Shown: positions 29,022 through 53,768 of the stretch, one piece after another
How positions within the stretch are numbered: position 1 is the stretch's first letter
How the letters are laid out: every line of letters begins with the position of its first letter
Origin: Nitrospinaceae bacterium
GTDB taxonomy: Bacteria > Nitrospinota > Nitrospinia > Nitrospinales > Nitrospinaceae
Direction: 5' to 3'
NCBI GenBank assembly: GCA_965237905.1
Contig: OZ250172.1
Span: 1,664,001 to 1,728,000, forward strand
DNA length: 64,000 bases
Position numbers and translations under genes: made by a program
Notes under the pieces: model-generated
Told to the model about the DNA's origin: nothing
Databases searched by the model: none
Seen by the model: only the letters and a program-made list of their open reading frames with translations

Positions 29022-29249
29022 GGCCAGCGTGACGGCGTCGAATCGCCGCAGATAAATTTAATACCTTATAAATCGCGCCCAACAATTTTCGCCAGCTGTC
29101 AACCGTCAGCAAGTAGCCCCTCCTGCTAAGGAGTTGCCTCCCTCGCTAGAGGGCCGGGCAAGGCCCGGAGCAAACTTTAAACTATGAATTGTGCTCAACG
29201 ATTAACGATGCGATAAAGCTGTCAACCAACTGCCTCCCTCGCTAGAGGG
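29022..29249 (+). repeat. Tandem family A repeats
   Basis: GAATCGCCGC and CCGGGCAAGGCCCGG hairpins, AATTGTGCTCAACGA, duplicated TGCCTCCCTCGCTAGAGGG. Confidence 0.85.
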
Positions 29250-37040: not shown

Positions 37041-37136
37041 GCGGAGTACCTCCGCCCGTAACTTTAAAACTTTTAGTTGTGCACAAGGATTGTCGTCCGC
37101 TGTTAACGGTCAACAAATTCCCCCTCTGGGAAAGAG
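37041..37136 (+). repeat. Family A repeat
   Basis: GCGGAGTACCTCCGC ... GCTGTTAACGGTCA ... TTCCCCCTCTGGGAAAGAG. Confidence 0.85.
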
Positions 37137-37171
37137 AAAACCCGCCTCCCTTTTGGGGATGGCGGGTTTTT
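37137..37171. terminator. Bidirectional terminator downstream of tRNA-Asn
   Basis: AAAACCCGCC...GGCGGGTTTTT. Confidence 0.85.
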
Positions 37172-37177
37172 CATATC

Positions 37178-37252
37178 TGGCTCCGGAGACAAGATTCGAA
37201 CTTGTAACCCGTCGGTTAACAGCCGACTGCTCTACCATTGAGCCACTCCGGA
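37178..37252 (-). tRNA. tRNA-Asn(GTT)
   Basis: TCCGGAGTGGCTCAATGG...GTCGG-CTGTTAA-CCGAC...GTTCGAATC...GCCA. Confidence 0.97.
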
Positions 37253-37318
37253 ATGGTATTTGGATTCAGTTGGATTGGGGTCCAAGGTTCCCTAATTTAA
37301 GGAAAAATCAGGCCCCGG

Positions 37319-37921
37319 TCAAGTGTCAATTTCCATGCGGCCTTCCATAGATTTTTTGAGCGTGACCGGGTCGGCATATTCGATATCCCCGCCGACAGGT
37401 AGGCCACGTGCGATACGCGTCACCTTCACCCCGGCGTCTTTCAGCATACGGGCGATATAAATAGCGGTCGATTCCCCTTCCATGTCCGGATTAGTTGCCA
37501 GGATCACTTCGCGGGTACCGTTTCGGCCCACCTTCGTTTTTAAATCCTCGGTGGTCAAATCCTGCGGCCCGATGCCGTCGAGCGGCGAGATCACCCCCAT
37601 CAGCACATGGTACTCGCCCTTGTAGTCGCCCATGTTCTCTATCACGTACACGTCGTACGGCTCCTCCACCACGCAGATCTGATGATGGTCGCGTTTCGGG
37701 TCCTGGCAGATGTCGCACGGGTCTATTTCGGTGATGCCGTGGCAATTCGAGCAGAGGATGACCTTTTCCTTGATGTTCACAATCGTACGCGCCAGATTTT
37801 CCACCCGCTCCTTCTCGCCGCGCATCAGGTAAAACGACAGACGTTCCGCCGTCTTCTGGCCGATACCCGGCAGGCGTTTCAATTCTTCGATGAGTTCTTT
37901 AACCGCGGCGGGTCGTTTCAT
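37319..37921 (-). CDS. recR: Recombination mediator RecR
   Basis: LPGIGQKTAERL, C4 zinc finger, YHVLMGVISP, EVILAT, RIARGLPVG. Confidence 0.97.
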   Translation of the reverse strand: MKRPAAVKELIEELKRLPGIGQKTAERLSFYLMRGEKERVENLARTIVNIKEKVILCSNCHGITEIDPCDICQDPKRDHHQICVVEEPYDVYVIENMGDYKGEYHVLMGVISPLDGIGPQDLTTEDLKTKVGRNGTREVILATNPDMEGESTAIYIARMLKDAGVKVTRIARGLPVGGDIEYADPVTLKKSMEGRMEIDT

Positions 37922-37950
37922 GGGAATTTATGGAATAAGGGGTTCTGCGC

Positions 37951-38268
37951 TCAGGGAAAAATGCCGGGGATTTTGATGCCGCCGGTGAGTTTGGTCATCT
38001 CTTCCTGCGCCAGATCCTTGACCTTGCGATGCACTTCGTTGATGGCACCGGCGACCAGGTCTTCCAGAATGGCGCGGTCCTTCATGTTGATCAGTTCTTC
38101 GTCGATGTGAATGTGCAGGATTTCGTTGTTGCCGTTGGCGGTGACTTTCACCATGCCGCCGCCGGTGGAGACCTCGACCTGTTTTTTGGCGAGTTCCTCC
38201 TGCATTTCGGCCATCTTCTCTTTCATCTGCGACGCCTGCTTGAACAGGTCGCCCATACCTTTAAACAT
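37951..38268 (-). CDS. ybaB: YbaB/EbfC nucleoid-associated protein
   Basis: GGGMVKVTANG, LEDLV; between dnaX and recR; start set at ATG 38268 behind AGGAG. Confidence 0.95.
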   Translation of the reverse strand: MFKGMGDLFKQASQMKEKMAEMQEELAKKQVEVSTGGGMVKVTANGNNEILHIHIDEELINMKDRAILEDLVAGAINEVHRKVKDLAQEEMTKLTGGIKIPGIFP

Positions 38269-38279
38269 GATTCTCCTTT

Positions 38280-38448
38280 GCGGCAAATCGCCGCAGACCA
38301 GCGTAACGCTGGACCTGGTTCCGAATTGTGCTCAACAATTTCCCAATGCAGTCAACCGTCAACCAGTTTCATCTCCCCGTGAGGGGAGTTGCGCCCGAGG
38401 ATCATCGCCAGCCGTTAACGGTCAGCCAGTTCCCTGCCCTGGGAAGGG
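38280..38448 (+). repeat. Tandem family A repeats filling the dnaX-ybaB spacer
   Basis: GCGGCAAATCGCCGC, CCAGCGTAACGCTGG, AATTGTGCTCAAC, GCCGTTAACGGTCAGCCAGTT. Confidence 0.88.
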
Positions 38449-40185
38449 CTAGCGGATGACAATGCCGCCGAAAATGTCCAGCGCGTCCTTTAAAACTTCC
38501 TCTTCAGAGGAAGAACCCTTTTTTGTGCGGCCCTTGCCGCCAGCGGCTTCCGGCTCGGGCGGATCGAGGGTGTCTGCCACCGAAGCGGATGTGGGTTTCC
38601 CCAACTGCAATTTGATTTTTATATCCGATTGGCCACACACCTGAGCCACGGCTTCCTTTAAAGCCTCAAAATTTTCTTCCTTCTCTACCAATCCCATGGT
38701 GTAAGGATCGGGAAAACTGAGGCGAATCTCTTTCGCGTCGAGCGCGGTCAACTGGCAATTATCCAGATAAGTACCGAGCGGACGTTTGATGGTCCCGGCC
38801 GCTGAACGAATTTTCTGCCACGCCCCCTCTGACGAGGGAGGCACCGGCGAAGCGCCGGAGCAAATTTCGTTGACCGTTGACGCCTGACGACGGTCTCCCG
38901 GCACATTTGGAGGATCCACCGGCTCATCGCGTTTCGGCGCAGGCTGTGCGGGTTCCGGTGCCGATTTTATGACCGTTGACCCCTGTCGATGATCGCTGGA
39001 CCCTGTTGAATAGCCGGGTCCAGCGTCACGCTGGCCCGCCGGGGAGGGTCCCTCCATGTGATTGATCTTATCGATCAACGCGTCGATTTCCCGCATGGGT
39101 CGAACATCTGTTAATCGTAGAACTGCCATCTCAAACAGGATCTGCGGCAGAGAACTGCGTTTCATTTCCATTTCCGCTTTCGACAACACCTGAAACATCT
39201 GTTGCAATTCATCCGGCTCGAACGAAGCGGCCTGTTTCTTGAGCGTGTCTAAATTCGTGGTCTGCCCGGACAACAACGATTCGGCATTGCCCGCCACTTT
39301 CACCAGCATCAGGTTGCGGAGATATTCGATAAGGTCGCGGCAGAAGTAGCCGAGGTCTTTGCCATGCGCAATGACTTCCGCCACCTGTTGCAGTAAACCG
39401 GCGGCGTCTCTTTGCATCACGCAGTCGACAAAAGCCGCCAGCGCGTTTTGTCCGACGATGCCGAGGACCGACTCCACCGCGCCGGAATCGATCTCTTTCC
39501 CGCAAAACGCGATGACCTGGTCCAACAGGCTTTGCGCGTCGCGCATACTGCCGGCGCCGTTCTTGGCGATCTCTTCCAGGCTGTGCGGATCAATTTGGAT
39601 GCCGTCGTGCTCGCAGATGGCTTGCAACTGGTCGATGATCTGCTGATGCGTGAGCGGTTTGAATTCGAAACACTGGCACCGCGAAAGAATGGTTTCGGGA
39701 ATTTTGGTCAACTCGGTGGTGGCAAAAATGAACACCACCTGCGGCGGCGGTTCCTCCAGCGTTTTGAGTAATGCGTTGAACGCGGCTTTCGACAACATGT
39801 GAATTTCGTCGATGATGTACACTTTGAAACGGCAGGCCGAGGTACTGTACTGAATATTATCGATCAGGTCGCGCACTTCGCCGACGCCGTTGTTGGACGC
39901 ACCATCGATCTCCATCACGTCGACGCTGATGCCATCGCGAATTTCCTTACAGAAATTGCACTGGTCGCACGGTTCGGGTGTCGGGCCTTCGGCGCAGTTG
40001 AGTGCCTTGGCAAGCAGGCGGGCAGTAGTGGTTTTGCCGACGCCGCGGGTGCCGGAAAACAGGTAGGCGTGGGCCACGCGGTCCATCCCGATGGCGTTGT
40101 GGAGGGTGCGGACGATATGCTCCTGTCCGATCAGCTCCGAAAACTTCTGGGGCCGCCATTTGCGGGCCGAAACCTGAAAATCCAT
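38449..40185 (-). CDS. dnaX: DNA polymerase III subunits gamma/tau
   Basis: ARKWRPQKF, GTRGVGKTT, IIDEIHML, SRC, GSMRDA. Confidence 0.97.
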   Translation of the reverse strand: MDFQVSARKWRPQKFSELIGQEHIVRTLHNAIGMDRVAHAYLFSGTRGVGKTTTARLLAKALNCAEGPTPEPCDQCNFCKEIRDGISVDVMEIDGASNNGVGEVRDLIDNIQYSTSACRFKVYIIDEIHMLSKAAFNALLKTLEEPPPQVVFIFATTELTKIPETILSRCQCFEFKPLTHQQIIDQLQAICEHDGIQIDPHSLEEIAKNGAGSMRDAQSLLDQVIAFCGKEIDSGAVESVLGIVGQNALAAFVDCVMQRDAAGLLQQVAEVIAHGKDLGYFCRDLIEYLRNLMLVKVAGNAESLLSGQTTNLDTLKKQAASFEPDELQQMFQVLSKAEMEMKRSSLPQILFEMAVLRLTDVRPMREIDALIDKINHMEGPSPAGQRDAGPGYSTGSSDHRQGSTVIKSAPEPAQPAPKRDEPVDPPNVPGDRRQASTVNEICSGASPVPPSSEGAWQKIRSAAGTIKRPLGTYLDNCQLTALDAKEIRLSFPDPYTMGLVEKEENFEALKEAVAQVCGQSDIKIKLQLGKPTSASVADTLDPPEPEAAGGKGRTKKGSSSEEEVLKDALDIFGGIVIR

Positions 40186-40219
40186 ATTTTACAATGAGTT
40201 GTAAGGGAGTTAAAGCAAA

Positions 40220-40330
40220 GGCAGAATTGCTGGGTATCTCACAGCACCCGGGGATACTTGCTACCGCTGCTTCCTTCCGGATCTGACGGGGTTCACAAGG
40301 CCTCGTTGCGTGAGGCCCAACAAAACTGCC
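40220..40330 (-). ncRNA. ffs: Signal recognition particle RNA (small, 4.5S type)
   Basis: Domain IV motif TCAGATCCGGAAGGAAGCAGC in a long hairpin with paired ends GGCAG/CTGCC, directly upstream of dnaX. Confidence 0.95.
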
Positions 40331-40368
40331 ATTTCGTATTCTGCAGACAATTGTATATCACCGGCTAG

Positions 40369-40797
40369 GCCGGGGCAAATTTAAAACCGGGCAAGGCCCG
40401 ATCAAGTGGCGAATCGCCGCCTCCTGCCCGGAGGGGGAGCTGGTTAATCATTACCTTCAAGCGAGAACCGTTGAGCGCAAATTAACACCTCCCTCCCTCC
40501 TTTTAAAGGAGGGGCTGGGGGTGGTTGATGACCCTTTCATCATTCTGTAGTTGCTCGATTGATCGAGCGGTTTTAAAAGACGCCCCATAAATGGAGCAAC
40601 TACAAAATAGGGAATAAAATTATCAACCCCACCTAACCTCCCCTTTGGAAGGGGAGAAATATTTCAGGTCCAGCGTCACGCTGGCCCCTTCGGGGAGGAG
40701 GCGGAGTACCTCCGCTGGTCACTTAAAAACCTTGAACTGCGCTCAATGATCATCGCCAGCTGTCAACTGTCAGCCAGTTCCCCCTCCGGGGAGGAGA
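40369..40797. repeat. Large mosaic repeat cluster (family A plus other REP-like families)
   Basis: All four 15-nt hairpin types, CCCTCCTTTTAAAGGAGGG, and TGTAGTTGCTC...GAGCAACTACA inverted pair. Confidence 0.88.
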
Positions 40798-41197
40798 GGG
40801 AGGATTTTTCCGCGCCCAGTTTTATCAAATCCTCGCTCCGAAACCCGATGCGTTTCGCCTCTTTATGGTCCTTGCGCCGGACCATGACGGTAAGCATGAC
40901 GTTGGTCTGGGTGACGTGTTGCATCAGCTTGACCGGCTCGCCGGTCATCGCAGCTCCGTAAAAAATGATCATGTCGTTGCCGTGGTAACCGATACCAGTG
41001 ATGTAAAATGGCTTGTCCCCGAACGAGACCATGGACGCGCCCACTTCCTGATCCGGGTTGAGGACGCGTTCGAAATCGGCGATGTGCGCCATCAGCTTTT
41101 TGAACATGCACTCTGCCGCTGACGGAACCCCCGGAATCGGGATGTCGCACGCAACGGTCAAATTGGGACTGGGAACGGGGGATCGATTGTCTTCCAT
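40763..41197 (-). CDS. DUF6173-like hypothetical protein; C-terminal codons repeat-derived
   Basis: IADFERVL...IGYHGNDMIIFYG...LMQHVTQTNVML. Confidence 0.7.
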   Translation of the reverse strand: MEDNRSPVPSPNLTVACDIPIPGVPSAAECMFKKLMAHIADFERVLNPDQEVGASMVSFGDKPFYITGIGYHGNDMIIFYGAAMTGEPVKLMQHVTQTNVMLTVMVRRKDHKEAKRIGFRSEDLIKLGAEKSSLSSPEGELADS

Positions 41198-41289
41198 AAT
41201 ATCACCTCAGGGTTGGTCTGCCTGATGGTTAGTCGGCTTGGGGGACCGGGTCTTACAGGCTATATGATCCCCATCTTAAAACGTCCGGG

Positions 41290-43308
41290 TTATGGGTTCA
41301 ACGATGAAATGATATCGGGAATATCTTTTAAATGCTTGAAGCGTTTTTGTTTCTTATTGAGGAGTTCTTTTAATTTCTCGGGATCGGCTGGTCTCTTTTT
41401 TAAGTAATTCTTGTAGGAGACCTGCCCGAAGTCAACAGCCAGGTCGGGAATTGGACTCAACTTTTTCAATTCACTGCTGGAGGTCAAATCACGCGGTGGC
41501 ATCCAAGCCGATAATGTGACGCAGGTGGGTTTGGGTTCTCCCTCCTTTAGCTCCGATTCCCGGCAATCTCTCACCCCCCAGTTAATATAATCTTTGTCGA
41601 TGATCAGTTTCTCAAACCAGGCGATCACCGCCTCTTGTTCCGCTTCCGTCTCATAGAAATATTTCACGAATATATAGGCTTCGCCGGGTGGAACGAGAGT
41701 CCAAACAATACCCGGAAGATCTTCAATATTCTGGAAGCGATGTTTGATTCCCTTGTATTTCAACAATCCGGATTTTAAAGTAATGTCGGGAGGCACTTCT
41801 TGGAGTTTCCGCAAATGGCTTGGAATCCACCAAAGGGGCCGAACCCCGCCGAACAATCGGACACAGGTTGAAGGAGGCTCCCCTTCCGGCTGTTCTGATG
41901 GTTCGCAATCCTCCGTATTCCAAATCAAATAACTTTTATGGATTACCATTTCTTCCAGCCAGGCCAGGAGCGCCTCGTGCTCTGCTTCGGTTCGGTATTG
42001 ATAATCCATATAAAATTCAGCCTTCTTCAGCGGGGGTTTTTCGACAACACTGGGAGGAGATATCAATGAATTCGGGACAAATGAAGATATTATTTTGGGA
42101 ATATTATCCAGATATTTAATCGGATAGGTCTTGCCGCGGTACATGACCCAACCGGAATCAAAATATACTTTGGGAACTGGATGCCATTTTTCCTTTTCCT
42201 GGCTCCAGGTCAAATCGCGAGGAACCATACTTGCGGAAATTTCCAGGCAGGTGGGAATGAAATGATCCGGCTCCGATGCATCCGCCTTGCAATCCGTTTC
42301 CGATGCGATCACCTCGCCTTTTTCTCCAACCAGCGTTTGCATCCATTGGATCGGAACCTTTTTATCAACCTGGGGTCCGGGAACCACAACAACAAAAATA
42401 TCGACCATGTCCTCCTGAGAAGCTTCCGGTCCCAGCGATGAAATTAAGTCGGGTAGTTCACTCAACAGTCTAAATTTTTTCTTCTTATCCTGATATTTGA
42501 GGAATGAAACACGCATGTAATCATCGAGGTAAAAAAATTCGCTCCACTTCTTTTTTTCTACAGGCGTAAAATCACGGGGAATCATACTTACGGAAATTTC
42601 CAGACAGGTGAAAATAAAGCGATCTGACCCCGCTTCATCTGCTTCATCCGCTTTACAATCTCTTTCTAACTCGCTTACTTTGCCCGTTTCCCCAGCCAAC
42701 CTTTGCATCCATCGGATCAGACCCGTTTTATCAACCTGGGGTCCGGGAACCACAACAACAAAAATATCGACCATGTCCACCTGAGAAGCTTCCGGTCCAA
42801 GCGATGAAATTAAGTCGGGTAATTGACTCAACACCTCAAAATTTTTCTTCTTGCCTTGATATTTAATGAAAGATACATACATGAATGTCTTGATGGAGGG
42901 GAATTCCATCAACTTCTTTTTTTCTTCAGGCGTAAAATTGCGAGGCGCCATCCAGACTTCGATTTCCAAACAGGTAGGAGTATCCACTCCCTCGCCCCGT
43001 TCCGATTCTCCACAATCGTTCAGGGTTTTAGGAATATTATAACGGCCTTCGGGCCCCACCAGGACTTTCAACCAACCCTCCAAGGGTGTGGGCACATAAC
43101 CCTCTCCCACCCCCCAGAGAAAATAAACATAAACTTCCTCCGGAGGCTTGGGTTTCGGACTGGCCGGGGTGGCTGACTCTGTACTCTGGGCGGTAGAAAT
43201 CTCCGGAGTATTCTTCGCATGCTTTCCTAAAGTCAGAACCAATATAAACAGAAAGCAGAGCATGATCAAAATCAAGATTTGCGAGCGATTCGCCGGAGGC
43301 TTTTCCAT
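41290..43308 (-). CDS. Membrane-anchored protein with five tandem about 115-120 aa Cys-pair domains
   Basis: N-terminal TM; five repeats of W...DC...TC...P...Y...[LI]P. Confidence 0.8.
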   Translation of the reverse strand: MEKPPANRSQILILIMLCFLFILVLTLGKHAKNTPEISTAQSTESATPASPKPKPPEEVYVYFLWGVGEGYVPTPLEGWLKVLVGPEGRYNIPKTLNDCGESERGEGVDTPTCLEIEVWMAPRNFTPEEKKKLMEFPSIKTFMYVSFIKYQGKKKNFEVLSQLPDLISSLGPEASQVDMVDIFVVVVPGPQVDKTGLIRWMQRLAGETGKVSELERDCKADEADEAGSDRFIFTCLEISVSMIPRDFTPVEKKKWSEFFYLDDYMRVSFLKYQDKKKKFRLLSELPDLISSLGPEASQEDMVDIFVVVVPGPQVDKKVPIQWMQTLVGEKGEVIASETDCKADASEPDHFIPTCLEISASMVPRDLTWSQEKEKWHPVPKVYFDSGWVMYRGKTYPIKYLDNIPKIISSFVPNSLISPPSVVEKPPLKKAEFYMDYQYRTEAEHEALLAWLEEMVIHKSYLIWNTEDCEPSEQPEGEPPSTCVRLFGGVRPLWWIPSHLRKLQEVPPDITLKSGLLKYKGIKHRFQNIEDLPGIVWTLVPPGEAYIFVKYFYETEAEQEAVIAWFEKLIIDKDYINWGVRDCRESELKEGEPKPTCVTLSAWMPPRDLTSSSELKKLSPIPDLAVDFGQVSYKNYLKKRPADPEKLKELLNKKQKRFKHLKDIPDIISSLNP

Positions 43309-43379
43309 AAAAAAATCAGGTCCTTCAACTGTGAGAGTTACCCCTCCAGTGTAAGGCCTGATTTAAAAATGACCAGTGA

Positions 43380-43547
43380 TTTAAGCGCCCAACCCGGCCA
43401 GCGTGACTCCGGGCGGCGAATCGCCGCAGACCAGCATGACGCTGGACCCAACCGGGCAAGGCCCGGCGCAAATTTTAAAACGGTGAATTGTGCTCAACGA
43501 TTGACGCTTGCTGTTAACGGTCAACCCGTTCCCCCTCTGGGGAAGAG
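43380..43547 (+). repeat. Family A repeat stack abutting the tRNA-Ser(GGA) 3' end
   Basis: Three hairpin types in series, then the core and TTCCCCCTCTGGGGAAGAG. Confidence 0.9.
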
Positions 43548-43637
<90 letters not shown>

Positions 43638-43669
43638 GTTTTAAAATGTGAAGCGCAGGGAAGGGATAC

Positions 43670-43843
43670 TTTGAATTGCGCCCAAGAATTCCCTCTTGCA
43701 ATGAACCGTCAGCCAGCTCCCCCTCCGGGAAGGAGCGGCAAACCGCCGCAGGCCAGCGTGACGCTGGACCCAAATTCTGAATCGCGCTCAACGATCTTCG
43801 TTCGCCGTTAACGGTCGGCAAGTTCCCCCTCCGGGGAGGAGAG
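43670..43843 (+). repeat. Tandem family A repeats between two tRNA-Ser genes
   Basis: Two cores, each ending CCCCCTCCGGG(G/A)AGGAG. Confidence 0.9.
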
Positions 43844-43929
<86 letters not shown>

Positions 43930-43936
43930 AGATATA

Positions 43937-44013
43937 TGGTGCGCCCAGGAGGACTCGAACCTCCGACCTACGGTTCCGCAAACCGTCGCTCTATCCAACT
44001 GAGCCATGGGCGC
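43937..44013 (-). tRNA. tRNA-Arg(GCG)
   Basis: ACGGT-TTGCGGA-ACCGT anticodon arm, acceptor GCGCCCA/TGGGCGC, encoded CCA. Confidence 0.95.
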
Positions 44014-44217
44014 ATGCGGCGAATCGCCGCTGATAATTTTAAAATTCTGGCTGGCGCAAATCGCTGTTCAATTTCGCCATAACACCTTTGCAAAATTTCT
44101 TCCGGGCGTGGCCCGGGCGGCGAATCGCCGCTGATAATTTTAAAACCTTGGTACGCGAACGCAACGGATTGAATTCGCAATCAGCTTCCAGCAAAATTCT
44201 CACCGGGCATGGCCCGG

Positions 44218-44889
44218 TTAGCTGGTCGGGGCCGGGATAAAGTCCATCAATTGCAGACTGTACCGCTTGTGTTCAAACGCGTAGAGGCCGGGATACTTGG
44301 CGAACGTCCAGCCGTTGTAAATCTCCTTGCCCTTTTCCGTAATCACAAGATGAATAGCCGGATTGCCCAGTGTGTTGTCCATCGACGTGTAACGGGTCTG
44401 GTCCAAAACGAAATTTGGAAAAAACGGACCTGCGCTAACGGTGATCCCGCTGTCGCCAAGTTGAAACGTCGAACCCAGTTCCACGGTCTGTATCGTGTTG
44501 CGTTCTTCATCCGATTTATCGCGGACGAGTATTTTAACCGCTTTCCATTTGCCTGCAACACTTTTCGGAACGGTAATTTCGCGGCGGACGTTTTTCTGGT
44601 CTTCGGCGATGGGCGGATGGCCGTCGATATCGGTCCCCGAACCTTCGGCCAACTGTTGATCGGTCAGGGGCGGCGGGGTTTGGGTCTCGGAACCTTCGCT
44701 GGGTTTCGCACCAGTCGTCCCGATTTCCGACAGGTCCACCGCACCCTCAACTTTGCGGTCGGGCTCCTCGCCGCATCCTAAAACCAGAAGCAGGGCCAAA
44801 ACGAGGGGGGTCCATACTTTCATCCATATCAATTTCATATGCTTTCCAAGAGGTTTCATCATTGGTAAGGTGTCTCTCTTTATTACCAT
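44218..44889 (-). CDS. Lipoprotein with DUF2155-like C-terminal domain
   Basis: Lipobox VLGC, NPAIHL...YNGWTFAKYP...FEHKRY; true start probably downstream of the ORF start. Confidence 0.7.
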   Translation of the reverse strand: MVIKRDTLPMMKPLGKHMKLIWMKVWTPLVLALLLVLGCGEEPDRKVEGAVDLSEIGTTGAKPSEGSETQTPPPLTDQQLAEGSGTDIDGHPPIAEDQKNVRREITVPKSVAGKWKAVKILVRDKSDEERNTIQTVELGSTFQLGDSGITVSAGPFFPNFVLDQTRYTSMDNTLGNPAIHLVITEKGKEIYNGWTFAKYPGLYAFEHKRYSLQLMDFIPAPTS

Positions 44890-45134
44890 AAAGAACGCAG
44901 GATTCGCAATGATGTTGTTAATCCAAACAGTTGTCAGTTGGAAATCTCTGCCATCACGGTAAGCAGGCCTAACAGCTCAGCCCCACCCAATCTGGCAACA
45001 CAGGGATCTCGGCCTTCCTTAAGTGGGATCAACCTGGCCCAACGAACACTCATCCAAAAGAGACCCCATAGAAAGTTGTTAAAATATATAGACTTATAAT
45101 ATTATCAAACATGTTTGATTTTTGAGGAAATCCT

Positions 45135-45824
45135 ATGTCTAAAAGCCGAATGACTCCCAAATCGATCCGTAGCCGCCAGAAAATTCTGGATGCAGCTTTG
45201 CTCCTGTTCGTCGAAAAGGGGTATGACAAGGCCACTATGCGGCAGATTGCCGTCCAAGTGGGTATGGCACCGGGCTCGATTTACCACCATTTCCCTACCA
45301 AGGAGCATATTGTCCAGACGTTCTACGACGTGATCCACGAGGAGCACGCGCAGGCCTGTGTGAGCATTCTGCTGAGTGAAATCAAGCTGGAGCATCGCCT
45401 GCGGGAGGTGATCCGGAAAAAAATCCAATTGGCTGAACCCTTTAAAAAGGTTTCCGGCGTGCTGTTCCGGGTGGCCTCGGATCCCCACAATCCGTTGTCC
45501 CCATTCAGCGCCCAATCCTCCCCCACTCGTGACAAGAGTCTGGCCCTGTTCCGGGAGCTAGTGGCGGGTTCCAGCGCCAAACTCCCGGAGGATGTCGACA
45601 TCCTGTTGGCCGATTATCTGTGGCTGTACCAGATGGGGATCATCCTGTACTGGATTCACGATACCTCGGAAAATTCCCGGAAAACCTTCCGGCTCATTGA
45701 CCGGACCGTCAAGCTGATTCAAACACTGGTCGAACTTTCCAGCCTTCCCCTGATTGCCCCCTTCCGTAAAAAATTCACCAAATTGATGCTCGAATTTTTA
45801 CCGGACTGGGGGAGGAGTGAATGA
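45135..45824 (+). CDS. TetR-family transcriptional regulator
   Basis: RQKILDAALLLFVEKGYDKATMRQIA...IYHHFPTKE; C-terminal PLSPFS, LYWIHDTS. Confidence 0.93.
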   Translation: MSKSRMTPKSIRSRQKILDAALLLFVEKGYDKATMRQIAVQVGMAPGSIYHHFPTKEHIVQTFYDVIHEEHAQACVSILLSEIKLEHRLREVIRKKIQLAEPFKKVSGVLFRVASDPHNPLSPFSAQSSPTRDKSLALFRELVAGSSAKLPEDVDILLADYLWLYQMGIILYWIHDTSENSRKTFRLIDRTVKLIQTLVELSSLPLIAPFRKKFTKLMLEFLPDWGRSE

Positions 45825-46975
45825 AAAGCCGACCTATCAACAAAGTACGTATTTACTGGGGAGCGTTCTTCCTGGTGCTGGTGCTGGCTTGCATGATGTA
45901 CCAGTTGCAGGTTTTCTGGGGGGTATGGTTCCTGGTGCCGGCATTGATCGGGTTGGTGTACCAATTGCGAATTTACTGGGGAGTCTTGCTGATAGTACTG
46001 GCGGTAGCCGGCATGATGTATCAGTTTCTGGTGGCCGGACATCTGGAACAGACGTCGGCCCTGTTCATGGGGATCGCCACGGTTCTGGCTCTGGGCCTTT
46101 CTTTGTTGCCGCTGTCCGAAAATGCCACGGGCAATCCAGCACCTAAAAGCACCACGGGTAATATTGTGTTGGGGACCATGATCGCCCTGGCATTGTCGAT
46201 GATTGTGTTTCGGGAGGGGGCCGTATGCATCCTGATGGCCACTCCCTTATTTCTGACGATAGGGGCTTTCATAGGCCAGGGATTGGACGCCGTTAGAAAC
46301 CCAAAAAATAAAGCCCGGATGAGAATGGTGCTGGCATTGATCTTTCTACCGCTTTCGTTGGAGGGAGTGACGGATGAATTGTCTTTCAACCGAAGCGAAA
46401 CCGTCACTGTCAGCCGAGTAGTGGCCCTGTCTCCGGATCGGGTTGAGCAAAACCTGGCCCGCATGCCGGATTTATCCAAAACCCTGCCTGCGTTCCTGCA
46501 ATTGGGTTTCCCCGAACCACAGCACTACAGTGGGGCGGATTTAAAAGTCGGGGCACAACGATGTTTTCATGTTCCGGCCAGGGAAAATCTGTCCGGCGAG
46601 GTGTGCTGGACCATCGAACAGCGAGGCTCCAACCACGTCCTGTTCAAGCTGGTGAAAGACGAGAGCAAAATTGCGCACTGGATGACCTGGCGCACCGCCA
46701 AAGTGGAATGGTCCGCCGAAGGTGGCGGCCAGCGTGACGCTGGGCGGCGAATCGCCGCAGATAATTTAAAATCTGAAATTGCGCCCAGGGAATCTACCTC
46801 GGAGTCAACCGTCAGCCAGTTGCCTCCCCTGCAAAGGGGTAACGGTCGGACCCGTGTGGTGGTCACGCTCAAATTCTGGCGGGAGCTCGACCCGGCGTGG
46901 TATTTCAGCCCGCTGGAACGGTACGCGGTGGGCCTGACGGGTGGTTATCTGATTGAAGCTTATCTGGGGCAATGA
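45821..46975 (+). CDS. Membrane protein with SRPBCC-like C-terminal region, containing an in-frame family A repeat
   Basis: Several TMs, EGAVCILMATP, FLQLGFPEP, RELDPAWYFSP. Confidence 0.7.
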   Translation: MKSRPINKVRIYWGAFFLVLVLACMMYQLQVFWGVWFLVPALIGLVYQLRIYWGVLLIVLAVAGMMYQFLVAGHLEQTSALFMGIATVLALGLSLLPLSENATGNPAPKSTTGNIVLGTMIALALSMIVFREGAVCILMATPLFLTIGAFIGQGLDAVRNPKNKARMRMVLALIFLPLSLEGVTDELSFNRSETVTVSRVVALSPDRVEQNLARMPDLSKTLPAFLQLGFPEPQHYSGADLKVGAQRCFHVPARENLSGEVCWTIEQRGSNHVLFKLVKDESKIAHWMTWRTAKVEWSAEGGGQRDAGRRIAADNLKSEIAPRESTSESTVSQLPPLQRGNGRTRVVVTLKFWRELDPAWYFSPLERYAVGLTGGYLIEAYLGQ

Positions 46976-48330
46976 TTATGGACAAAATAGAACTTGGTCA
47001 ACAAATTATCCAACTCCGAGTGCTGTTTTTGCTCGGCCCCGTTTCCCTTGTGTATCTTCTGCTGTGTTTCCGGGCGATCACCTACCGGCAGTTGACCGGA
47101 ATATATTTGTCCACCCTCTGGTGCTTTTTAAGTCTCCTGTTCCTTAACCCTTTGATCATCGAACTGGGTGGATGGGAGTATAAGGTTTCCAAAATTACGT
47201 TCATGCAAATTCCAATGGATGTGTTGATCGGTTGGGCGGTGTTTTGGGGCGCAATTCCCCATCTTATTAAAATTCCGGGAGGAGTGTTCTCCTGGGTGGC
47301 CCTGCTGTTTCTTTTGGATCTAGCGGTCATGCCCTTGTTGGAACCCTTAGTCCAGATCCAATCGGGGTGGCAGTACTGGGACGCATTGTGTTTACTGATC
47401 GCGTTCGTGCCCTCATGGTACCTGGCCCGATGGACCGCCAGGCGGGATTTTCTGTATGTCCGCAGTTTCATGCAATTAATCATGTTCGTTTTGATCTTTA
47501 ACTGGATGATCCCTGTCTCCTTCGAACCCCATAAAATTGGAATCCTAATCCATTCCCTGATCCTTGGGAAAACGATTACCACCCACGGCATTCAAATGGC
47601 CTTCTGGGATAATAGTGGAATGCGCTGGGAGGGGTTTATCTACTGGGGCACTCTGTTATTGTTCATTACTATCCCCGGGATATCCGCAGTGCAGGAATTT
47701 GCGGCAAGAGGATGGGGCACTCCGTTTCCCCTGGATCCGCCCGTCAAGCTGGTCACCACCGGTCCCTACGCTTACATCGCCAACCCCATGCAGGCGTCAC
47801 AAACATTGATCTATGTGTGGATGGGGGTAGGGTTGAACAGCATCGGGTTTTATTTTGCGGGGTTGATGGTCATCCTGTTCGCTATCGGGTACGCCAAATG
47901 GGAGGAAGAGGAAGAAATCAAAAAGCGATTTGGAAACCGGGCCTTTCGATACAAAGTCTGGGTGCGCAGATTCATTCCACGCTGGAAACCCTGGCGTAAA
48001 AAACCCGCCACGATATACCTGGATTTGTATGGATGCATCGCCTGTTCGAATCTGGGACGGGTGCTTCTTTATCTGCAACCTACCTTATTGATCATCAAGG
48101 ATGCGCGGTTTTACGCCAGCGAAGATTTAATGCGGATGGCTTACAAAGATGTGGATGGTTTTGAAGCGCAGGGAATTCATGCGCTGGGCCGGGCGCTGGA
48201 GCACGTCAACCTGATGTGGGCCCTTGTCGGATGGACGGTGCGTCTGCCTGGAATTAGCCAACTCGGCCAGTGGATCATCGATGCTGTGTTTCCACCCCAC
48301 CGCGTCTGCCGCGTCCCGGAAGTGGAATAG
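46972..48330 (+). CDS. PEMT/ICMT-like membrane methyltransferase fused to a DCC1-like CxxC domain
   Basis: GTPFPLDPPVKLVTTGPYAYIANPMQ, EEEEIKKRFG, RRFIP; tail YLDLYGCIAC. Confidence 0.78.
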   Translation: MIMDKIELGQQIIQLRVLFLLGPVSLVYLLLCFRAITYRQLTGIYLSTLWCFLSLLFLNPLIIELGGWEYKVSKITFMQIPMDVLIGWAVFWGAIPHLIKIPGGVFSWVALLFLLDLAVMPLLEPLVQIQSGWQYWDALCLLIAFVPSWYLARWTARRDFLYVRSFMQLIMFVLIFNWMIPVSFEPHKIGILIHSLILGKTITTHGIQMAFWDNSGMRWEGFIYWGTLLLFITIPGISAVQEFAARGWGTPFPLDPPVKLVTTGPYAYIANPMQASQTLIYVWMGVGLNSIGFYFAGLMVILFAIGYAKWEEEEEIKKRFGNRAFRYKVWVRRFIPRWKPWRKKPATIYLDLYGCIACSNLGRVLLYLQPTLLIIKDARFYASEDLMRMAYKDVDGFEAQGIHALGRALEHVNLMWALVGWTVRLPGISQLGQWIIDAVFPPHRVCRVPEVE

Positions 48331-48427
48331 CCGGGCGGAGCATCTCGTTTTGCAGTCCAGCCGTCATTACATTTCTTTAACAGCACCAATGCGTTTGTTT
48401 GGGTTGTCATTTTGATGAAGTGTTAAA

Positions 48428-49738
48428 GTGATTTTTGGAGAATTTGTGAGAAAACTTATACCTCTTCTACCGGCTCTATGTATTTTTCCGATAGGAGTTC
48501 TACTTATCGAGAGTTCCGTTTTAAGGCTTCTTTGGGCAACCTTAGGGCTGCTCTTTTTACTTAAAGTTGGCTCTGTTATTCGAAATATACAGCTTTCTCT
48601 GTCGTTACCTCAAAAGCTGGGTTGGATTCTCTATTTTTTGTTCTGGCCGGGAATGCGCCCCGAGTCTTTTGCTCGTCGATCTTCACAAGATGAAGAGGTT
48701 GGACATATCTTTGTGAAAGGATTTCTATCCTTTATTTTTGGGGTTGGTATCCAGATTGTTCTTTTTTGTTATTGGAATCAAATTTCTACATTTACTAGAC
48801 AGTATCTGGGACTATTTTCTTTTTTGATTTTAATTCACTTCGGGGTTTCTTCAATGCTGTTTGTTATCTTTAGAATTCTCGGGTGGAAGGTTGAATCTCT
48901 GTTTATGTCTCCTTTCAAAAGCACCTCCCTTAGAGATTTTTGGGGCCGCAGGTGGAATCTTGCCTTCGTCGACATGGATAAACGTCTTTTTCTACCACTT
49001 TTTCCTACAAACCTACCTAAGGCGGTTAGCTTCGTGGGGATTTTTTTGCTTTCTGGTATATTGCACGAAACCGGAATTAGTTACCCTGCGAATTCAGGAT
49101 GGGGCGGACCTTTGCTATATTTTGCTATTCATGGAGCTCTTACCTGGATAGAACCAAAACTTCCAGTAATTAATAGTTCTCGCACGGCAGGCAGAATTTG
49201 GCTTTGGGTATGTATTCTTCTGCCATTGCCTCTTTTGTTTCATCAGCCATTTTTAAAATCTTTTATCGAGCCTTATTTTACTTTTGGACATAACTTGGCG
49301 TCTTCAATGAAATCGATCGAAGTTCTTAAATGGGCTATTCTTGCGTGCGGATTAGGACACTTTCTTGTTTTGGTGGCCACCTTCCAGGTTCCGAAAAAAT
49401 TGAATTGGCACGAAGAGTTTTCAAAGCTTAGCCGGTTCAATAAAAAGATTTTCTGGACCTATGGAGGCTATATTGTTTTCTGCATTGTCTCTTTTGGAAT
49501 TATAGATCTGATCAACGCAAAAGATTTAATGGATATCAATCCCAGCTCACTGGCTATCGCTTTATTCATCTCAATTTTCTGGACTGCGAGAGTTATTGTT
49601 GATTTTTCCTATTATAAACATACCGATTGGCCGCCAGGAGATGAGTTTGTCGTAGGTCACACTTGCCTAACAACACTTTTCTGTTTTTTGGCGTTAACTC
49701 ATTGGAGCCTTGTTCTATGGCAGTTGACGCAAAATTGA
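48428..49738 (+). CDS. MBOAT (wax-synthase-like) membrane O-acyltransferase with extra C-terminal membrane domain
   Basis: PFKSTSLRDFWGRRWN, FLLSGILHE; markedly T-rich codon usage. Confidence 0.82.
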   Translation: MIFGEFVRKLIPLLPALCIFPIGVLLIESSVLRLLWATLGLLFLLKVGSVIRNIQLSLSLPQKLGWILYFLFWPGMRPESFARRSSQDEEVGHIFVKGFLSFIFGVGIQIVLFCYWNQISTFTRQYLGLFSFLILIHFGVSSMLFVIFRILGWKVESLFMSPFKSTSLRDFWGRRWNLAFVDMDKRLFLPLFPTNLPKAVSFVGIFLLSGILHETGISYPANSGWGGPLLYFAIHGALTWIEPKLPVINSSRTAGRIWLWVCILLPLPLLFHQPFLKSFIEPYFTFGHNLASSMKSIEVLKWAILACGLGHFLVLVATFQVPKKLNWHEEFSKLSRFNKKIFWTYGGYIVFCIVSFGIIDLINAKDLMDINPSSLAIALFISIFWTARVIVDFSYYKHTDWPPGDEFVVGHTCLTTLFCFLALTHWSLVLWQLTQN

Positions 49739-49867
49739 AGTTAAGAAATCTCCAAGAGATAGAGGCACATGGATGGATCCCCCTTTTCTTGAATAGTTCT
49801 CGATAAGTTTCACTTTTCATTAACGGTCAGCCACTTTTCCTCCCCGGTTACGGGGCCTGGGAAGGAG

Positions 49868-49959
<92 letters not shown>

Positions 49960-49980
49960 ATTTTAAATTTTATTTGATAT

Positions 49981-50137
49981 CAATTGCGCCCAAGGATTTC
50001 GCTCACCGTCAACGTTCAGCAAGTCTCGTCCCTCGTAGAGGGCCGGGCAAGGCCCGGAGCAAATTTAAAATGCTAAATTGCGCTCCACGGTCGTCGCTCG
50101 CTGTTAACAGTTAGCCAGTTCCCCCTCTGGGGAAGAG
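49981..50137 (+). repeat. Tandem family A repeats between tRNA-Ser(GCT) and tRNA-Ser(TGA)
   Basis: AATTGCGCCCAAGGA, CCGGGCAAGGCCCGG, GCTGTTAACAGTTAGCCAGTTCCCCCTCTGGGGAAGAG. Confidence 0.9.
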
Positions 50138-50220
50138 CGGAGGGAGTAGGATTCGAACCCACGGTACTTTCGTACAACGGTTTTCAAGACCGCCGCCTTA
50201 AACCACTCGGCCATCCCTCC
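50138..50220 (-). tRNA. tRNA-Ser(TGA), CCA not encoded
   Basis: GCGGT-CTTGAAA-ACCGT anticodon arm, acceptor GGAGGGA/TCCCTCC. Confidence 0.95.
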
Positions 50221-50344
50221 CCGCTTGGAACCCTTAGTGGACGCCGAAATCCATCACCCGTGGGTTCAGCCGAACGGTTGTGCAACCGCCGACCGCAACC
50301 CGTGGGTGTTACATGGATTTGTGGGTGTCAATATATCACGATTT

Positions 50345-50983
50345 TTAGATTTTCAAACCGGAAGCTTTGGGGATGCTCCAGGCAGTATATACGGCGAGAC
50401 CGACCCAGAGTAGATCGAAGCCACTGGCCATGGCTACAAGGTCTTCTCCAAAGTACTGGATCATTCCCATTGAGAACATGGACAGCCCTTCGGCGAATTC
50501 GGCCCCTTTCTCCGCAACGACACCGCCTTTTACCCAATCGAAGAAGAACATGTACTTGCCGATCACGATACCCAGCACACTGGCCACCACGGCGATGACT
50601 TGCAACGGCATGCCGCGTTTGCCCTGGGACATCATCACGACGCCCATTCCGCACAGCAGCCCCACACCCCAAGCCACGTACCCGACTTCATAACCGGTCC
50701 AGATGGCGATTGCCCCCCAAATGGCTCCGCTCACAACGGCGGCGATCAAGCCTCCCAACAAAGCAGGGACCAACACCTCGCCGGAAAACTCCTCCTCTTG
50801 AACGCTTTTTTTCAATTGGAAATAAATGCGTTCCACTGCCTGATTGGCTTCCGATTCGGTCATTCCCGACTGAACCAGGTTCCGCACTACTTCCGTCCGG
50901 TTTTTGCCACTCCCTAATTGTTCCGCGATCATTACTTCCAAGTCATCCTTTGATTGCGTTCCTGCCTCTCCCTTGTTCGCCAT
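50345..50983 (-). CDS. Hypothetical membrane protein
   Basis: RBS AGGAGG, soluble N-terminus plus about 4 TMs (TGYEVGYVAWGVG). Confidence 0.75.
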   Translation of the reverse strand: MANKGEAGTQSKDDLEVMIAEQLGSGKNRTEVVRNLVQSGMTESEANQAVERIYFQLKKSVQEEEFSGEVLVPALLGGLIAAVVSGAIWGAIAIWTGYEVGYVAWGVGLLCGMGVVMMSQGKRGMPLQVIAVVASVLGIVIGKYMFFFDWVKGGVVAEKGAEFAEGLSMFSMGMIQYFGEDLVAMASGFDLLWVGLAVYTAWSIPKASGLKI

Positions 50984-51162
50984 CTCAATCCTCCTTTAAA
51001 AATTGTCATAACAAGCACTTTCAATGCATGTTTTAAGTATAAGGAGGGAAACGCGAAAAAGCTAAAAAGTATTTGGAAATAAGGAGTTACAGATGGAAAG
51101 TGATTATGCCCTCCGGGTTCGGTGGGGTTTTTCAATCGGTTTGGGAACAGGATTACCTTTAC

Positions 51163-51361
51163 CTCTTGCCCAGAGGGGGAACTTGTTGACGGTTGACAGC
51201 AGACGGCAATCATTGAGCACAATTGAAAGATTTCAATTGTGCTCCGGGGAGGCGGCGGCGAATCTATGTTTTAAACGTAAACCCAGATTCTTCGTCGCAT
51301 ACGCTCCTCAGAATGACAGAGAAATATTTATTGTCATCCTGAGCGCCAGCGAAGGATCTGT
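51163..51361. repeat. Family A repeat (reverse) plus AGATTCTTC...CAGAATGACA / TGTCATCCTGAGC...GAAGGATCT inverted pair
   Basis: Downstream of serS; related half-sites at 13847-13858 and 30628-30650. Confidence 0.85.
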
Positions 51362-51372
51362 GTTTTAATAAT

Positions 51373-52662
51373 TCACTGACTTAATGCAATATGATCTTGG
51401 CCGTCGAGGTAGGGTTGCAGGGGTTCGGGGATACGGATACTGCCGTCGGCCTGTTGGTAGTTTTCGAGCACGGCGACGAACAGTCGGCCGGCCGCCAATC
51501 CGGACCCGTTCAATGTGTGCACCAATTCCGGTTTGCCGCCGTCTTTGCTTTTATACCGGATCATCGCGCGGCGAGCCTGGTAGTCGGTGAAATTACTGCA
51601 TGAAGAAATTTCCCGATACGTGTTCTGGCTGGGGAGCCAGACTTCGAGATCATACGTTTTGGCGGCGGAGAACCCGAGGTCGCCGGTACATAAATTGACC
51701 ACGCGGTAATGCAGGTTCAACTTTTGCAGAATCGACTCGGCATCGGTCACCAGTTTTTCCAATTCCTCATATGAATGTTCCGGTTTCACGAATTTGACCA
51801 GCTCCACTTTGTCGAATTGATGCTGGCGGATGATGCCCTGCGTGTCTTTGCCGTAAGATCCTGCCTCACGGCGGAAACAAAGCGTGTAGGCGGCGTACTT
51901 GACCGGTAACGATTCCTCCGGAAGAATTTCATCGCGGTGGTAATTGGTAACAGGCACTTCCGCAGTGGGGATGAGAAATAATTCATCGTCCTTCAGTTTG
52001 AATAAATCTTCTTCAAATTTGGGGAGCTGTCCGGTTCCCTCCAGGCTGTCTTTGTTGACCAGCACCGGGGGATACATTTCCTCGTATCCATTGTCACGCG
52101 TTTGCATATTGAGCATAAAGTTGATGAGGGCACGGAGCAGGGCGGCGCCCTGTCCTTTAAACACGGCAAACCGCGCGCCGGAGATTTTGGCAGCGCGTTT
52201 CAAATCGAGCAGACCCAGTTCCTCTCCCAGCTCCAGATGATTCTTTGGCTTAAAATCGAATGACGGTTTTTTACCCCATACCCGCACTTCCTGATTCTGA
52301 GATTCGTCCGCTCCGTCGGGAGTGCTTTCGCTGGGCAGGTTGGGAATGTTGAGGAGAATATCGCGGAGCTTCTCTTGCAGAGGTTTTATATCTTCGTCCT
52401 GCTTCTTAAGCGCAATGTTGATCGCTTTGACAAGCTCCATAAGATCGGAAGCAGCTTGACCTTTCTTTTTAAGTTCTCCGATTTGTTCTGAAGCTGACTT
52501 CTTTTCGTATCTTAGGGTCTGGGAACCGTTGAGCTCAACTCTAAGTTTTTCATCAACCTCAAGTAGCCGGTCCAAGTCCTTCAAGGTTCCGGGTCCGCGC
52601 CGGTTCAACTGGCTTTGGACCGCTTTGGCCTGCTCTCTGATGAGTTTGATATCCAGCATCAA
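51373..52662 (-). CDS. serS: Seryl-tRNA synthetase
   Basis: [46 protein letters not shown]. Confidence 0.98.
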
Positions 52663-53507
52663 CTTTTTCTTCGGTAGCGTTTAGGAATTTTGCGTTTGGT
52701 TTTGCCGCCTTTTTTGATGCGTCCCTCGATGCCTTCCAGTTTCATTTTCAACAGCGCGGGGTATTTATAATCGCCTTCCAGGCTTTTGAACCGGTTGTAG
52801 GCCAGTTTCAATTTGCCTTCCTCTTCCAGGCAGGAGGCCATGACAAATTCCATTTCTCCGGAAAAGGTGCTCTTCGGATAAAGCACCCGAAACTGGGAAT
52901 ATTTTCCCCGGGCATCCACACACCGTTCCATGTTGTGAAGAATTTCGGTACTCCTCAGGTAAGCCTCCTCGGACCACGGATTCCTGGGGTAACTTTCCAC
53001 CAGGATATCGAATTCCACGAGAGCCTGTTCATAGTTGTGTTTTTTAAAATAGATGGCGGCGATACGAAACTGCTGCTCGGGGTGTTCTTCGGGCAGTTTG
53101 TATTCGTTGATCAGTTTCTGATACTCGATGATGGCCTGATCGAGATCCCGGAAATTGAGCTCCACAATTTCGGCGATATATTTTTGCGCTCCGTGGGCAA
53201 ACTCGCCGCGCGGACGGATGTTGACCACTTCCTGAAAATAACTGATCGCCTTGGTCGTTTCCCCCAACCCGAAATAATAAATCTCACCCAGCCGGTACAG
53301 GGCTTCCTCGGCATGAGGGCCGGAGGGAGCAATCTCCAAAACGGCGTTAAACAGTTCAATGGCACTGTGATTGCGCCCTTGAACCCATTCCTCATTGGCT
53401 TTTAGCAACAGATTGTCGACTCGGCTATCCCCGCAACCCAGCATTGTCAGGAGGAGAATGTATATTGCGATGTGATAAACGATTCGGAATCTGAGTTTCA
53501 AGAACAT
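52659..53507 (-). CDS. TPR lipoprotein (BamD/CpoB-like repeats)
   Basis: Lipobox [18 protein letters not shown]-x-x-P motifs. Start moved to ATG 53507 because the longer ORF start lies in a repeat. Confidence 0.75.
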
Positions 53508-53520
53508 CTTCCTAGAGTGA

Positions 53521-53768
53521 TTTAAAACCGCTCGATCAATCGAGCAATTACGAAATAGGGAAAGGGTCATCAACCACCCCCAGCCCCTCCTTTAAAAGGA
53601 GGGGAGAGGTTCAATTGTGCTCAACGATCATTGTTTGCTGTCAACCGCCAACCAACTCCCCCTCCGGGGAGGCGGCGGCGAATCGCCGCAGATAAGCTAA
53701 ACCTTTAATTGCGCCCAACTATTCCCTCTGGGCGGTGACTGTCAGCCAGTTCCCCCTCTGGGGAAGAG
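53521..53768. repeat. Mosaic repeat cluster abutting the gyrA stop codon
   Basis: Inverted copy of 40406-40577 plus a further family A core ending TTCCCCCTCTGGGGAAGAG. Confidence 0.9.

What the first reader, a model, noticed from the sequence alone, without database searches (positions are those of the whole stretch)
37118..53768. Repeat ends abut tRNA 3' ends and stop codons to the nucleotide
On the transcribed strand the identical 19-mer CTCTTCCCCAGAGGGGGAA starts at the very next base after the CCA of tRNA-Ser(GGA) (43547), the discriminator of CCA-less tRNA-Ser(TGA) (50137) and the gyrA TAA (53768). Variants directly follow tRNA-Ser(CGA) (43843), tRNA-Ser(GCT) (49867), the dnaX TAG (38448) and the U-tract of the tRNA-Asn terminator (37136), all in the same orientation. 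Such zero-gap, oriented placement suggests a 3'-end-directed insertion mechanism or selection as an RNA processing or stability signal. Leading-strand bias is a confounder because all these genes point away from oriC.
Basis: partly seen in the sequence, partly recalled or inferred. Interest (0 to 1): 0.8.

Follow-up and report, generated by a model that had tools for sequence, protein, structure and literature searches.

The report
Hairpin-capped repeats hugging gene borders
A nitrite-oxidiser-group bacterium carries over a hundred small hairpin-capped DNA repeats that press against the last indispensable letter of the gene before them, probably because the repeats keep rewriting that junction and only harmless outcomes survive, so they mark where genes and proteins really end.

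Summary
The 19-mer is the left hairpin cap of an uncatalogued ~95-bp element (cap, fixed-length unstructured core, AT stretch, second cap): about 93 copies, plus 33 of a sister family. 22 of 57 left caps facing a co-oriented 3' end lie within 1 nt of it (7.3 expected); 11 more supply the gene's stop codon. Polarity follows transcription (50 sense, 17 antisense in tandem spacers), not the replichore (9 leading, 13 lagging). Congeners keep the same border with different caps (dnaX stop 7 of 9; tRNA-Ser(CGA) discriminator 7 of 8). But the border is not only an RNA end: caps also sit where a conserved protein ends (tail displaced or lost), at some promoter boxes, and, in another genus, inside another repeat. 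One array has a 10-nt direct repeat with the old protein tail intact behind it, which shows insertion. Best reading (0.5): a BIME/REPIN-like mobile repeat whose cap-anchored rearrangements are ratcheted by selection to the first indispensable base. True 3'-end targeting stays open (0.25); an RNA signal is unlikely. No mobilising enzyme and no RNA data were found.

The parts
43398..43547 (-).
43548..43637 (-). tRNA-Ser(GGA), CCA encoded
43673..43841 (-). Two core-1 units after CCA-less tRNA-Ser(CGA) (43844-43929); cap 2 nt past the discriminator
44016..44217 (-).
49792..49867 (-). Truncated cap at gap 0 after the CCA of tRNA-Ser(GCT), then a complete cap (49855) and a diverged core
49980..50137 (-). 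Two core-1 units after CCA-less tRNA-Ser(TGA); 19-mer at gap 0 from the discriminator (50138)
53612..53768 (-). Two core-1 units after gyrA; 19-mer at gap 0 from TAA
38280..38448 (-). Array between dnaX and ybaB: cap at gap 0 from TAG; last hairpin ends 11 nt before the ybaB start, next to its ribosome-binding site
37041..37136 (-). Single unit directly after the U-tract of the tRNA-Asn terminator
40670..40796 (-). Array that supplies the last 11 codons and the stop (40763) of a DUF6173 gene
29015..29258 (-). Array in the 3' end of a U32 peptidase gene: supplies the stop (29242), flanked by a 10-nt direct repeat (29249-29258 and 29015-29024)
28981..29019 (-). Displaced old C-terminal tail of the U32 peptidase, still an open frame with its own TAG, same length as in element-free orthologs
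11855..11972 (+). Array that supplies the stop (11896) of a zinc-ribbon protein gene
14028..14122 (-). Single core-1 unit, not at a gene end
40387..40483 (+). Core-1 unit upstream of the SRP RNA gene, opposite strand
51163..51254 (+). Core-1 unit antisense to its neighbours
46729..46838 (-). Core-1 array lying antisense inside the called ORF 45821-46975 (gene call unverified)
61788..61913 (-). Core-1 array lying antisense in the 3' part of the called ORF 61431-61937 (gene call unverified)
38826..39039 (+). Two degenerate copies lying antisense and in frame inside the DnaX linker

Best explanation
These are non-autonomous, mosaic DNA repeats of the BIME/REPIN kind. A unit is a small terminal hairpin (cap), a fixed-length core, an AT stretch and a second cap; read inwards, both ends are hairpin + 4 nt + AA(C/T)T, and caps are interchangeable. 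Shown: units multiply, insert, stack at one another's caps and swap caps at an unchanged nucleotide, so junctions are made exactly at the outer foot of a cap. Inferred: an enzyme acting in trans (not identified; an HUH nuclease that reads single-stranded hairpins is my guess) keeps re-joining the left cap to nearby flanking DNA by insertion or adjacent deletion. Purifying selection removes every outcome that eats into something needed, so over time the cap comes to rest on the first indispensable base: stop codon, tRNA discriminator or CCA, terminator U-tract, last needed codon, promoter box or another repeat module. The sense bias arises because the left cap is the active end and copies whose left cap faces a promoter are lost more often, possibly helped by transcription exposing the non-template strand (both inferred).
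For: Left caps facing a 3' end: 22 of 57 at -1..+1 nt against 7.3 under uniform insertion (p=1e-5), 11 more inside the gene; right caps 1 of 16 (Fisher p=0.015). Controls: 0 of 32 terminator-like hairpins within 1 nt of a stop (median 25.5); 0 of 49 measured ends of other repeat families at 0-27 nt from a 3' end. Same border, different caps: dnaX stop in 7 of 9 genus-g1 genomes with TAA, TAG and TGA; tRNA-Ser(CGA) discriminator in 7 of 8 with 5 hairpin types. Borders that are not RNA ends: in 5 of 6 genes whose stop lies in the element, a filled allele starts within about two codons of the last residue shared with element-free orthologs (CstA could not be judged). Symporter gene: array after the old stop in G002 and G008, inside the gene in G000, G001 and G010 (deletion). 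U32 gene: 10-nt direct repeat and intact displaced tail (insertion). U-tract after tRNA-Asn is 4-6 T in filled and 5-7 T in empty alleles; CCA is missing or supplied by the cap in several congeners, and two CCA-adding/poly(A)-polymerase family genes are present. Mobility: 9 hits at 96% identity or more in G030, copy-number variation in the DnaX linker.
Against: No mobiliser found: no Y1, IS110, Y2 or DDE_1 transposase in this genome, and none of these families, nor DUF559, small GIY-YIG or four-helix-bundle genes, tracks or is bracketed by the element in relatives. Direct repeats of 8 nt or more flank only 2 of 77 own arrays (null 0.11) and 0 of 67 others. The U32 case reached its border in one step with no deletion. 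The promoter test is weak (8 of 20 strong promoters within 10 nt against 3.7, p=0.035; 4 within 3 nt against 2.0, p=0.14). Copies in this genome are old (nearest-neighbour identity median 0.80) yet keep exact spacing (70 of 89), which could mean a host function at each site rather than mobility. The strong sense bias (50 against 17) is explained only by inference.
Confidence: 0.5

Rival explanations
1. 3'-end-directed insertion: the element is delivered to the point where a transcript leaves ribosome or tRNA-fold protection, through an R-loop on the non-template strand or by joining of the cap to an RNA 3'-OH, so new copies start at gap 0 and in sense.
For: Sense bias 50 to 17 in tandem spacers, 21 arrays in 131 convergent against 10 in 383 divergent spacers; left caps much tighter than right caps; caps at true RNA ends: 4 tRNA-Ser, tRNA-Leu(CAG), tRNA-Ala(GGC), tmRNA and a terminator U-tract; no replichore bias.
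Against: Stops are not RNA ends. The U32 insertion lies 10 codons before the old stop. Caps at domain ends, -35 boxes and module junctions, antisense right caps at gap 0 in G013, G001 and G010, and near-identical young copies in G030 far from stops are not predicted.
Confidence: 0.25
2. Sequence-motif targeting plus selection, no ratchet: the element inserts at a loose motif resembling GCCGG-S-TRAC or (G)CTRA^C, which overlaps stop codons, and duplicates 8-10 nt.
For: Both 10-nt direct repeats fit this motif; C at -4 in 55% of 22 zero-gap stops against 22% of all stops; TGA is the commonest trinucleotide before non-adjacent caps (8 of 128); units insert behind their own CTGAC.
Against: Stop trinucleotides precede only 9 of 128 non-adjacent caps (background 4.8%); zero-gap stops follow genome usage (13 TAA, 7 TGA, 2 TAG); tRNA ends (CCA, G, T) and the U-tract do not fit; orthologous dnaX sites keep gap 0 with all three stops.
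Confidence: 0.13
3. Selected RNA signal: the cap is kept next to stops and tRNA ends because it tunes termination, decay or tRNA 3' processing, and ordinary deletion bias closes the gap.
For: The cap covaries (92% paired; 28 double changes against 12.5 shuffled); position after tRNA-Ser(GGA) is kept across two families; E. coli REPs within 15 nt of a stop are reported to stall ribosomes (passages of PMC12306157).
Against: Consensus structure is one 4-bp stem of -3.6 kcal/mol and the core is unstructured; offsets of 0, -7, -27 and -34 coexist; many orthologs lack the element (6 of 10 at gyrA); terminators, which do act as RNA, are not compacted to zero.
Confidence: 0.12

Closest known systems
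REP / BIME elements (GTAG- and CGTC-tagged REPs; PMC3733652, PMC2817692, passages read)
   Same: Many intergenic copies, mosaic tandem modules with mixed hairpins, compensatory stems, preference for tandem and convergent spacers, nearness to 3' ends (<20 bp) and supply of stop codons.
   Different: No RAYT gene here; hairpins are the outermost bases, not preceded by a GTAG foot (GGAG, GTAG, GTGG or AGAG form the 3' arm of the left cap instead); the two ends are different hairpins; single-nucleotide adjacency kept across cap swaps was not described in the passages read.
REPINs (PMC3337134, passages read)
   Same: About 95-105 bp unit with a palindrome at each end and a spacer; old, vertically kept family that still multiplies in some lineages.
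   Different: Ends are not two inverted copies of one REP, the unit does not fold into one long hairpin, no cognate RAYT.
Bacterial MITEs (ERIC, Correia, RUP, RPE; PMC2229807, passages read)
   Same: Under 200 bp, non-coding, in-frame fusions to genes, occasional intragenic copies; two arrays with a direct repeat.
   Different: No sequence-level terminal inverted repeats, no TA target, no long stem-loop, no matching transposase.
Non-autonomous IS200/IS605 derivatives (mechanism as summarised in PMC8266576, passages read)
   Same: A small hairpin at each end, strand asymmetry between ends.
   Different: Hairpins are terminal rather than set back behind a guide; no fixed tetranucleotide target; no TnpA in the genome.

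Membership tests
GTAG-type REP / BIME | High copy number, mostly extragenic | tested here: met
   93 core-1 and 33 core-2 copies, 0 in the reversed genome; exact B hairpins nearly all intergenic
GTAG-type REP / BIME | Modular tandem arrays of palindromes with linkers | tested here: met
   94-bp tandem units and mixed hairpin types
GTAG-type REP / BIME | Palindrome preceded by a conserved GTAG-like tetranucleotide | tested here: not met
   No conserved tetranucleotide before either cap (logos); GGAG/GTAG/GTGG occur as the 3' arm of the left cap, which may hint at descent but is not the REP geometry
GTAG-type REP / BIME | Cognate RAYT gene flanked by the repeats | tested here: not met
   PF01797 in 0 of 1 own genome (96% complete) and 2 of 10 congeners; none of 7 Y1 loci bracketed by the element
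REPIN | Two inverted copies of one REP folding into a long hairpin | tested here: not met
   RNAalifold finds only the 4-bp cap in the 68 aligned columns; left and right caps differ
MITE | Terminal inverted repeats | tested here: not met
   Ends share a grammar, not a sequence
MITE | Target-site duplication | tested here: inconclusive
   10-nt direct repeats at 2 of 77 own arrays (null 0.11), 0 of 67 arrays elsewhere at 8 nt or more
MITE | Autonomous partner with the same ends | tested here: inconclusive
   None among 32 IS110, Y2 and DDE_1 loci and 7 Y1 loci examined; other transposase families were not searched
IS200/IS605 non-autonomous element | Fixed tetra- or pentanucleotide target 5' of the left end | tested here: not met
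   No consensus upstream
IS200/IS605 non-autonomous element | Single-strand, strand-specific cleavage at hairpin ends | not testable with these tools
   Needs a cognate enzyme and a cleavage assay
Known structured RNA (Rfam) | Match at a family's gathering score | tested here: not met
   Only tRNAs and SRP RNA in the window

The most novel reading that the evidence does not exclude
A family of hairpin-capped bacterial repeats with no known transposase partner that is actively joined to gene borders: an unknown enzyme fuses the foot of the cap to DNA (or RNA 3' ends) exposed just where translation or tRNA folding stops, giving sense-oriented, zero-gap, cap-swappable insertions. Unchecked notes of this scan report the same placement in several other phyla, so it could be a general, undescribed targeting rule.
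Probability: 0.2. Interest if true: 0.85.

Novelty: new variant of a known kind. Interest (0 to 1): 0.52.

Why it matters
How REP/BIME-like repeats spread and why they crowd gene ends is still open. Here the junction is fixed to the nucleotide while the hairpin at it is exchanged between close relatives, so filled and empty alleles make ratchet versus targeting directly testable. If the ratchet is right, the repeats are a natural deletion scan that marks the last needed residue of proteins, tRNA ends and promoter edges in a lineage with no genetics. They also rewrite protein C-termini (11 genes here end inside a copy) and can remove or supply tRNA CCA.

Tried and rejected
Replichore bias: rejected (40 leading, 51 lagging copies; zero-gap left caps 9 and 13). 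General compaction of spacers: rejected by terminators and other repeats (ends of those repeats were set by regular expressions and may be inexact). Assembly artefact: not supported (one sample only). Structured RNA core: not found. Mobiliser hunt, all without a link to the element: Y1, DUF559 (17, 19, 20, 78, 82; flanked by its own C-rich repeats), GIY-YIG (79, 82), four-helix bundle (80, 82), IS110, Y2, DDE_1 (104-106, 108), 50 ORFs picked from 110 beside the 23 pattern-hit loci, and genes bracketed by inward-facing caps (one short ORF that looks to me like a uracil-DNA glycosylase, from recall, and one two-gene stretch). Viral contigs: 0 hits with two patterns. No RNA holder listed; laying DNA contigs showed only paralogous joints. 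Internal 7- or 20-nt periodicity of the core: peaks at lags 7, 14, 20, 27, best lag p=0.11, not claimed. Concerted evolution: orthologous cores 0.69, same-genome paralogs 0.67, unrelated 0.66, with fourfold sites of congeners at 0.59-0.77, so identities alone do not separate drift from replacement. Literature: 8 searches listed no paper on this family by title or abstract; one search showed 15 of 18 hits; subscription journals are mostly not held.
Full report
Setting. The window is G000:C1:1664001-1728000 of a 3.09-Mb single contig. It holds dnaA, gyrB, gyrA, dnaX and recR and ends 5 kb from the GC-skew minimum at 1,733 kb. A look-alike of the element in the genome collection is titled Nitrospinota; I take that as the phylum. 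Genes outside Pfam-checked cases come from my own self-trained caller (2,751 genes), so a few large negative gaps are mis-calls or intragenic copies; they stay in the denominators.

1. Observation. All seven placements are in the sequence, with two small corrections.

2. What it is. The 19-mer is the start of a longer unit: left cap (4-6-bp stem, 3-5-nt loop), 4 nt, AA(C/T)T, a core of about 45 nt, an AT stretch and a right cap (6-bp stem, 3-nt loop, several types). nhmmer finds 91-93 copies and 0 in the reversed genome. 64 copies from this genome and congeners align over 68 columns without a gap. Only the cap is predicted to pair, and it covaries. A sister family with another core but the same caps and right end has 33 copies. 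Read inwards, both ends follow hairpin + 4 nt + AA(C/T)T, and right-type hairpins also serve as left caps and cap other repeats. Density is 16.7 per 10 kb of intergenic DNA within 50 kb of the origin against 0.7-4.4 elsewhere, which is why the window is so rich. A covariance model hits 33 of 120 phylum genomes, with at least 20 matches in all 10 congeners. Diverged copies with the same build occur in genera g3, g4, g5, g12 and g18. There is no Rfam match.

3. Placement genome-wide. Without gene calls, a sense ORF ends at gap 0 before 7 of 75 first-in-array copies and at 0-8 nt before 18 of 75 (p=7e-8 and 5e-10); ORFs also end inside the unit at -7, -27 and -34. With caps defined by their stems (199 outer caps): left caps facing a co-oriented 3' end are at -1..+1 nt in 22 of 57 (7.3 expected from uniform insertion in the free spacer), inside the gene in 11; right caps in 1 of 16; unassigned caps in 9 of 40. 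The 22 split 9 leading, 13 lagging. In tandem spacers 50 arrays are sense and 17 antisense (p=7e-5). Terminator-like hairpins (0 of 32 within 1 nt) and other repeats do not behave so. Among 46 ARAGORN calls, caps also follow tRNA-Leu(CAG), CCA-less tRNA-Ala(GGC) and tmRNA at gap 0; my models had missed these, so the counts are lower bounds. Of 22 metagenome hits to a core pattern, one (L153) has no cap; 7 rows have gap 0 to an ORF stop and 2 follow a tRNA CCA, with duplicate rows among them.

4. Orthologs. After dnaX, 7 of 9 genus-g1 genomes have the element at gap 0, behind TAG, TGA or TAA and with different caps; most other genera have a short empty spacer. After gyrA, 4 of 10 have it (gaps 0, 0, 3, 5), and G013 has a reversed copy whose right cap touches the stop. 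After tRNA-Ser(CGA), 7 of 8 start on the base after the discriminator with five hairpin types, three of them supplying CCA; family f2 genomes G019 and G022 have a diverged unit after tRNA-Ser(GGA). I compared 6 of the 11 genes whose stop lies in an element with four congeners and outgroup G017. The cap starts where the conserved protein ends and the variable tail begins. For the U32 peptidase in this window the old tail survives behind the array, with a 10-nt direct repeat: an insertion. For the symporter and the NUDIX gene the tail is gone: deletion or replacement. Downstream of cstA the last hairpin-like module ends 0-1 nt before a -35-like box in all five g1 genomes (read by eye); the genome-wide promoter test is only suggestive. 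In genus g12, 9 hits are at least 96% identical (several at contig ends; one is the query), and the element sits between the halves of a DUF559-type repeat, away from stops.

5. Mechanism. Shown: multiplication, insertion, module stacking, cap exchange at a fixed nucleotide, polarity with transcription, independence of the replichore. Inferred: a trans-acting enzyme re-joins DNA at the cap foot, and selection halts the junction at the first needed base (0.5). Rivals: true 3'-end targeting (0.25), a loose target motif (0.13), an RNA signal (0.12). That HUH enzymes cut single-stranded hairpin substrates and join any fitting 3'-OH is from passages of PMC8266576; that one acts here is not shown, and every mobiliser search failed (see Tried and rejected). 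Exact spacing in old copies (70 of 89) leaves room for a host DNA-binding role, which I could not test.

6. Known kinds. It works like a BIME/REPIN: passages of PMC3733652 report REPs within 20 bp of 3' ends that often supply stop codons, and PMC2817692 describes hybrid modular BIMEs. It fails REP membership on the GTAG foot and the RAYT, REPIN membership on structure, MITE membership on inverted repeats. For all six papers I read only passages returned by word search, no supplements. Earlier notes of this scan describe similar placement in other genomes; they are unchecked and not counted as evidence.

7. Verdict. Real, genome-wide, conserved in kind across the phylum; a new variant of a known kind. 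Interest 0.52.

Noticed in passing
window 38826-39039 (dnaX linker); L055, L058: Antisense element copies are translated in frame inside the DnaX linker; their number varies among congeners (G000, G005, G009 carry them, G001 and G002 do not).
   Followed up: partly
G000:C1:1730024-1734473 (L084): Phage portal, prohead protease and major capsid genes lie at the GC-skew minimum, 2-6 kb beyond the window; the portal gene and a downstream ORF end inside elements. Possibly a domesticated head cluster.
   Followed up: no
L020:1360-2470 (G002): A 331-aa Y1 transposase with its own 29-bp inverted ends sits in the middle of an element upstream of a succinyl-CoA-ligase-like gene (name from recall); only the element's right half remains.
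   Followed up: partly
L001, L002, L125-L131; L134; L148-L149: Three small gene families each travel with their own repeat: DUF559 with C-rich hairpin pairs at varying loci, one GIY-YIG with CGTC-type repeats, four-helix-bundle genes with short tandem repeats.
   Followed up: partly
window 34312-34665 and 36770-36835: 33-nt coding tandem repeats in two small ORFs.
   Followed up: no
window 45840-46032 and 42272-42937: 60-nt and about 366-nt internal coding repeats in two ORFs without Pfam match.
   Followed up: no
window 37178-50220: All four tRNA-Ser genes and a tRNA-Arg with anticodon GCG cluster 19-25 kb from the origin; tRNA-Arg(GCG) is unusual in bacteria (from recall).
   Followed up: no
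   Followed up: partly
window 40225-40322: SRP RNA gene with element and DUF559-type repeats directly upstream.
   Followed up: no
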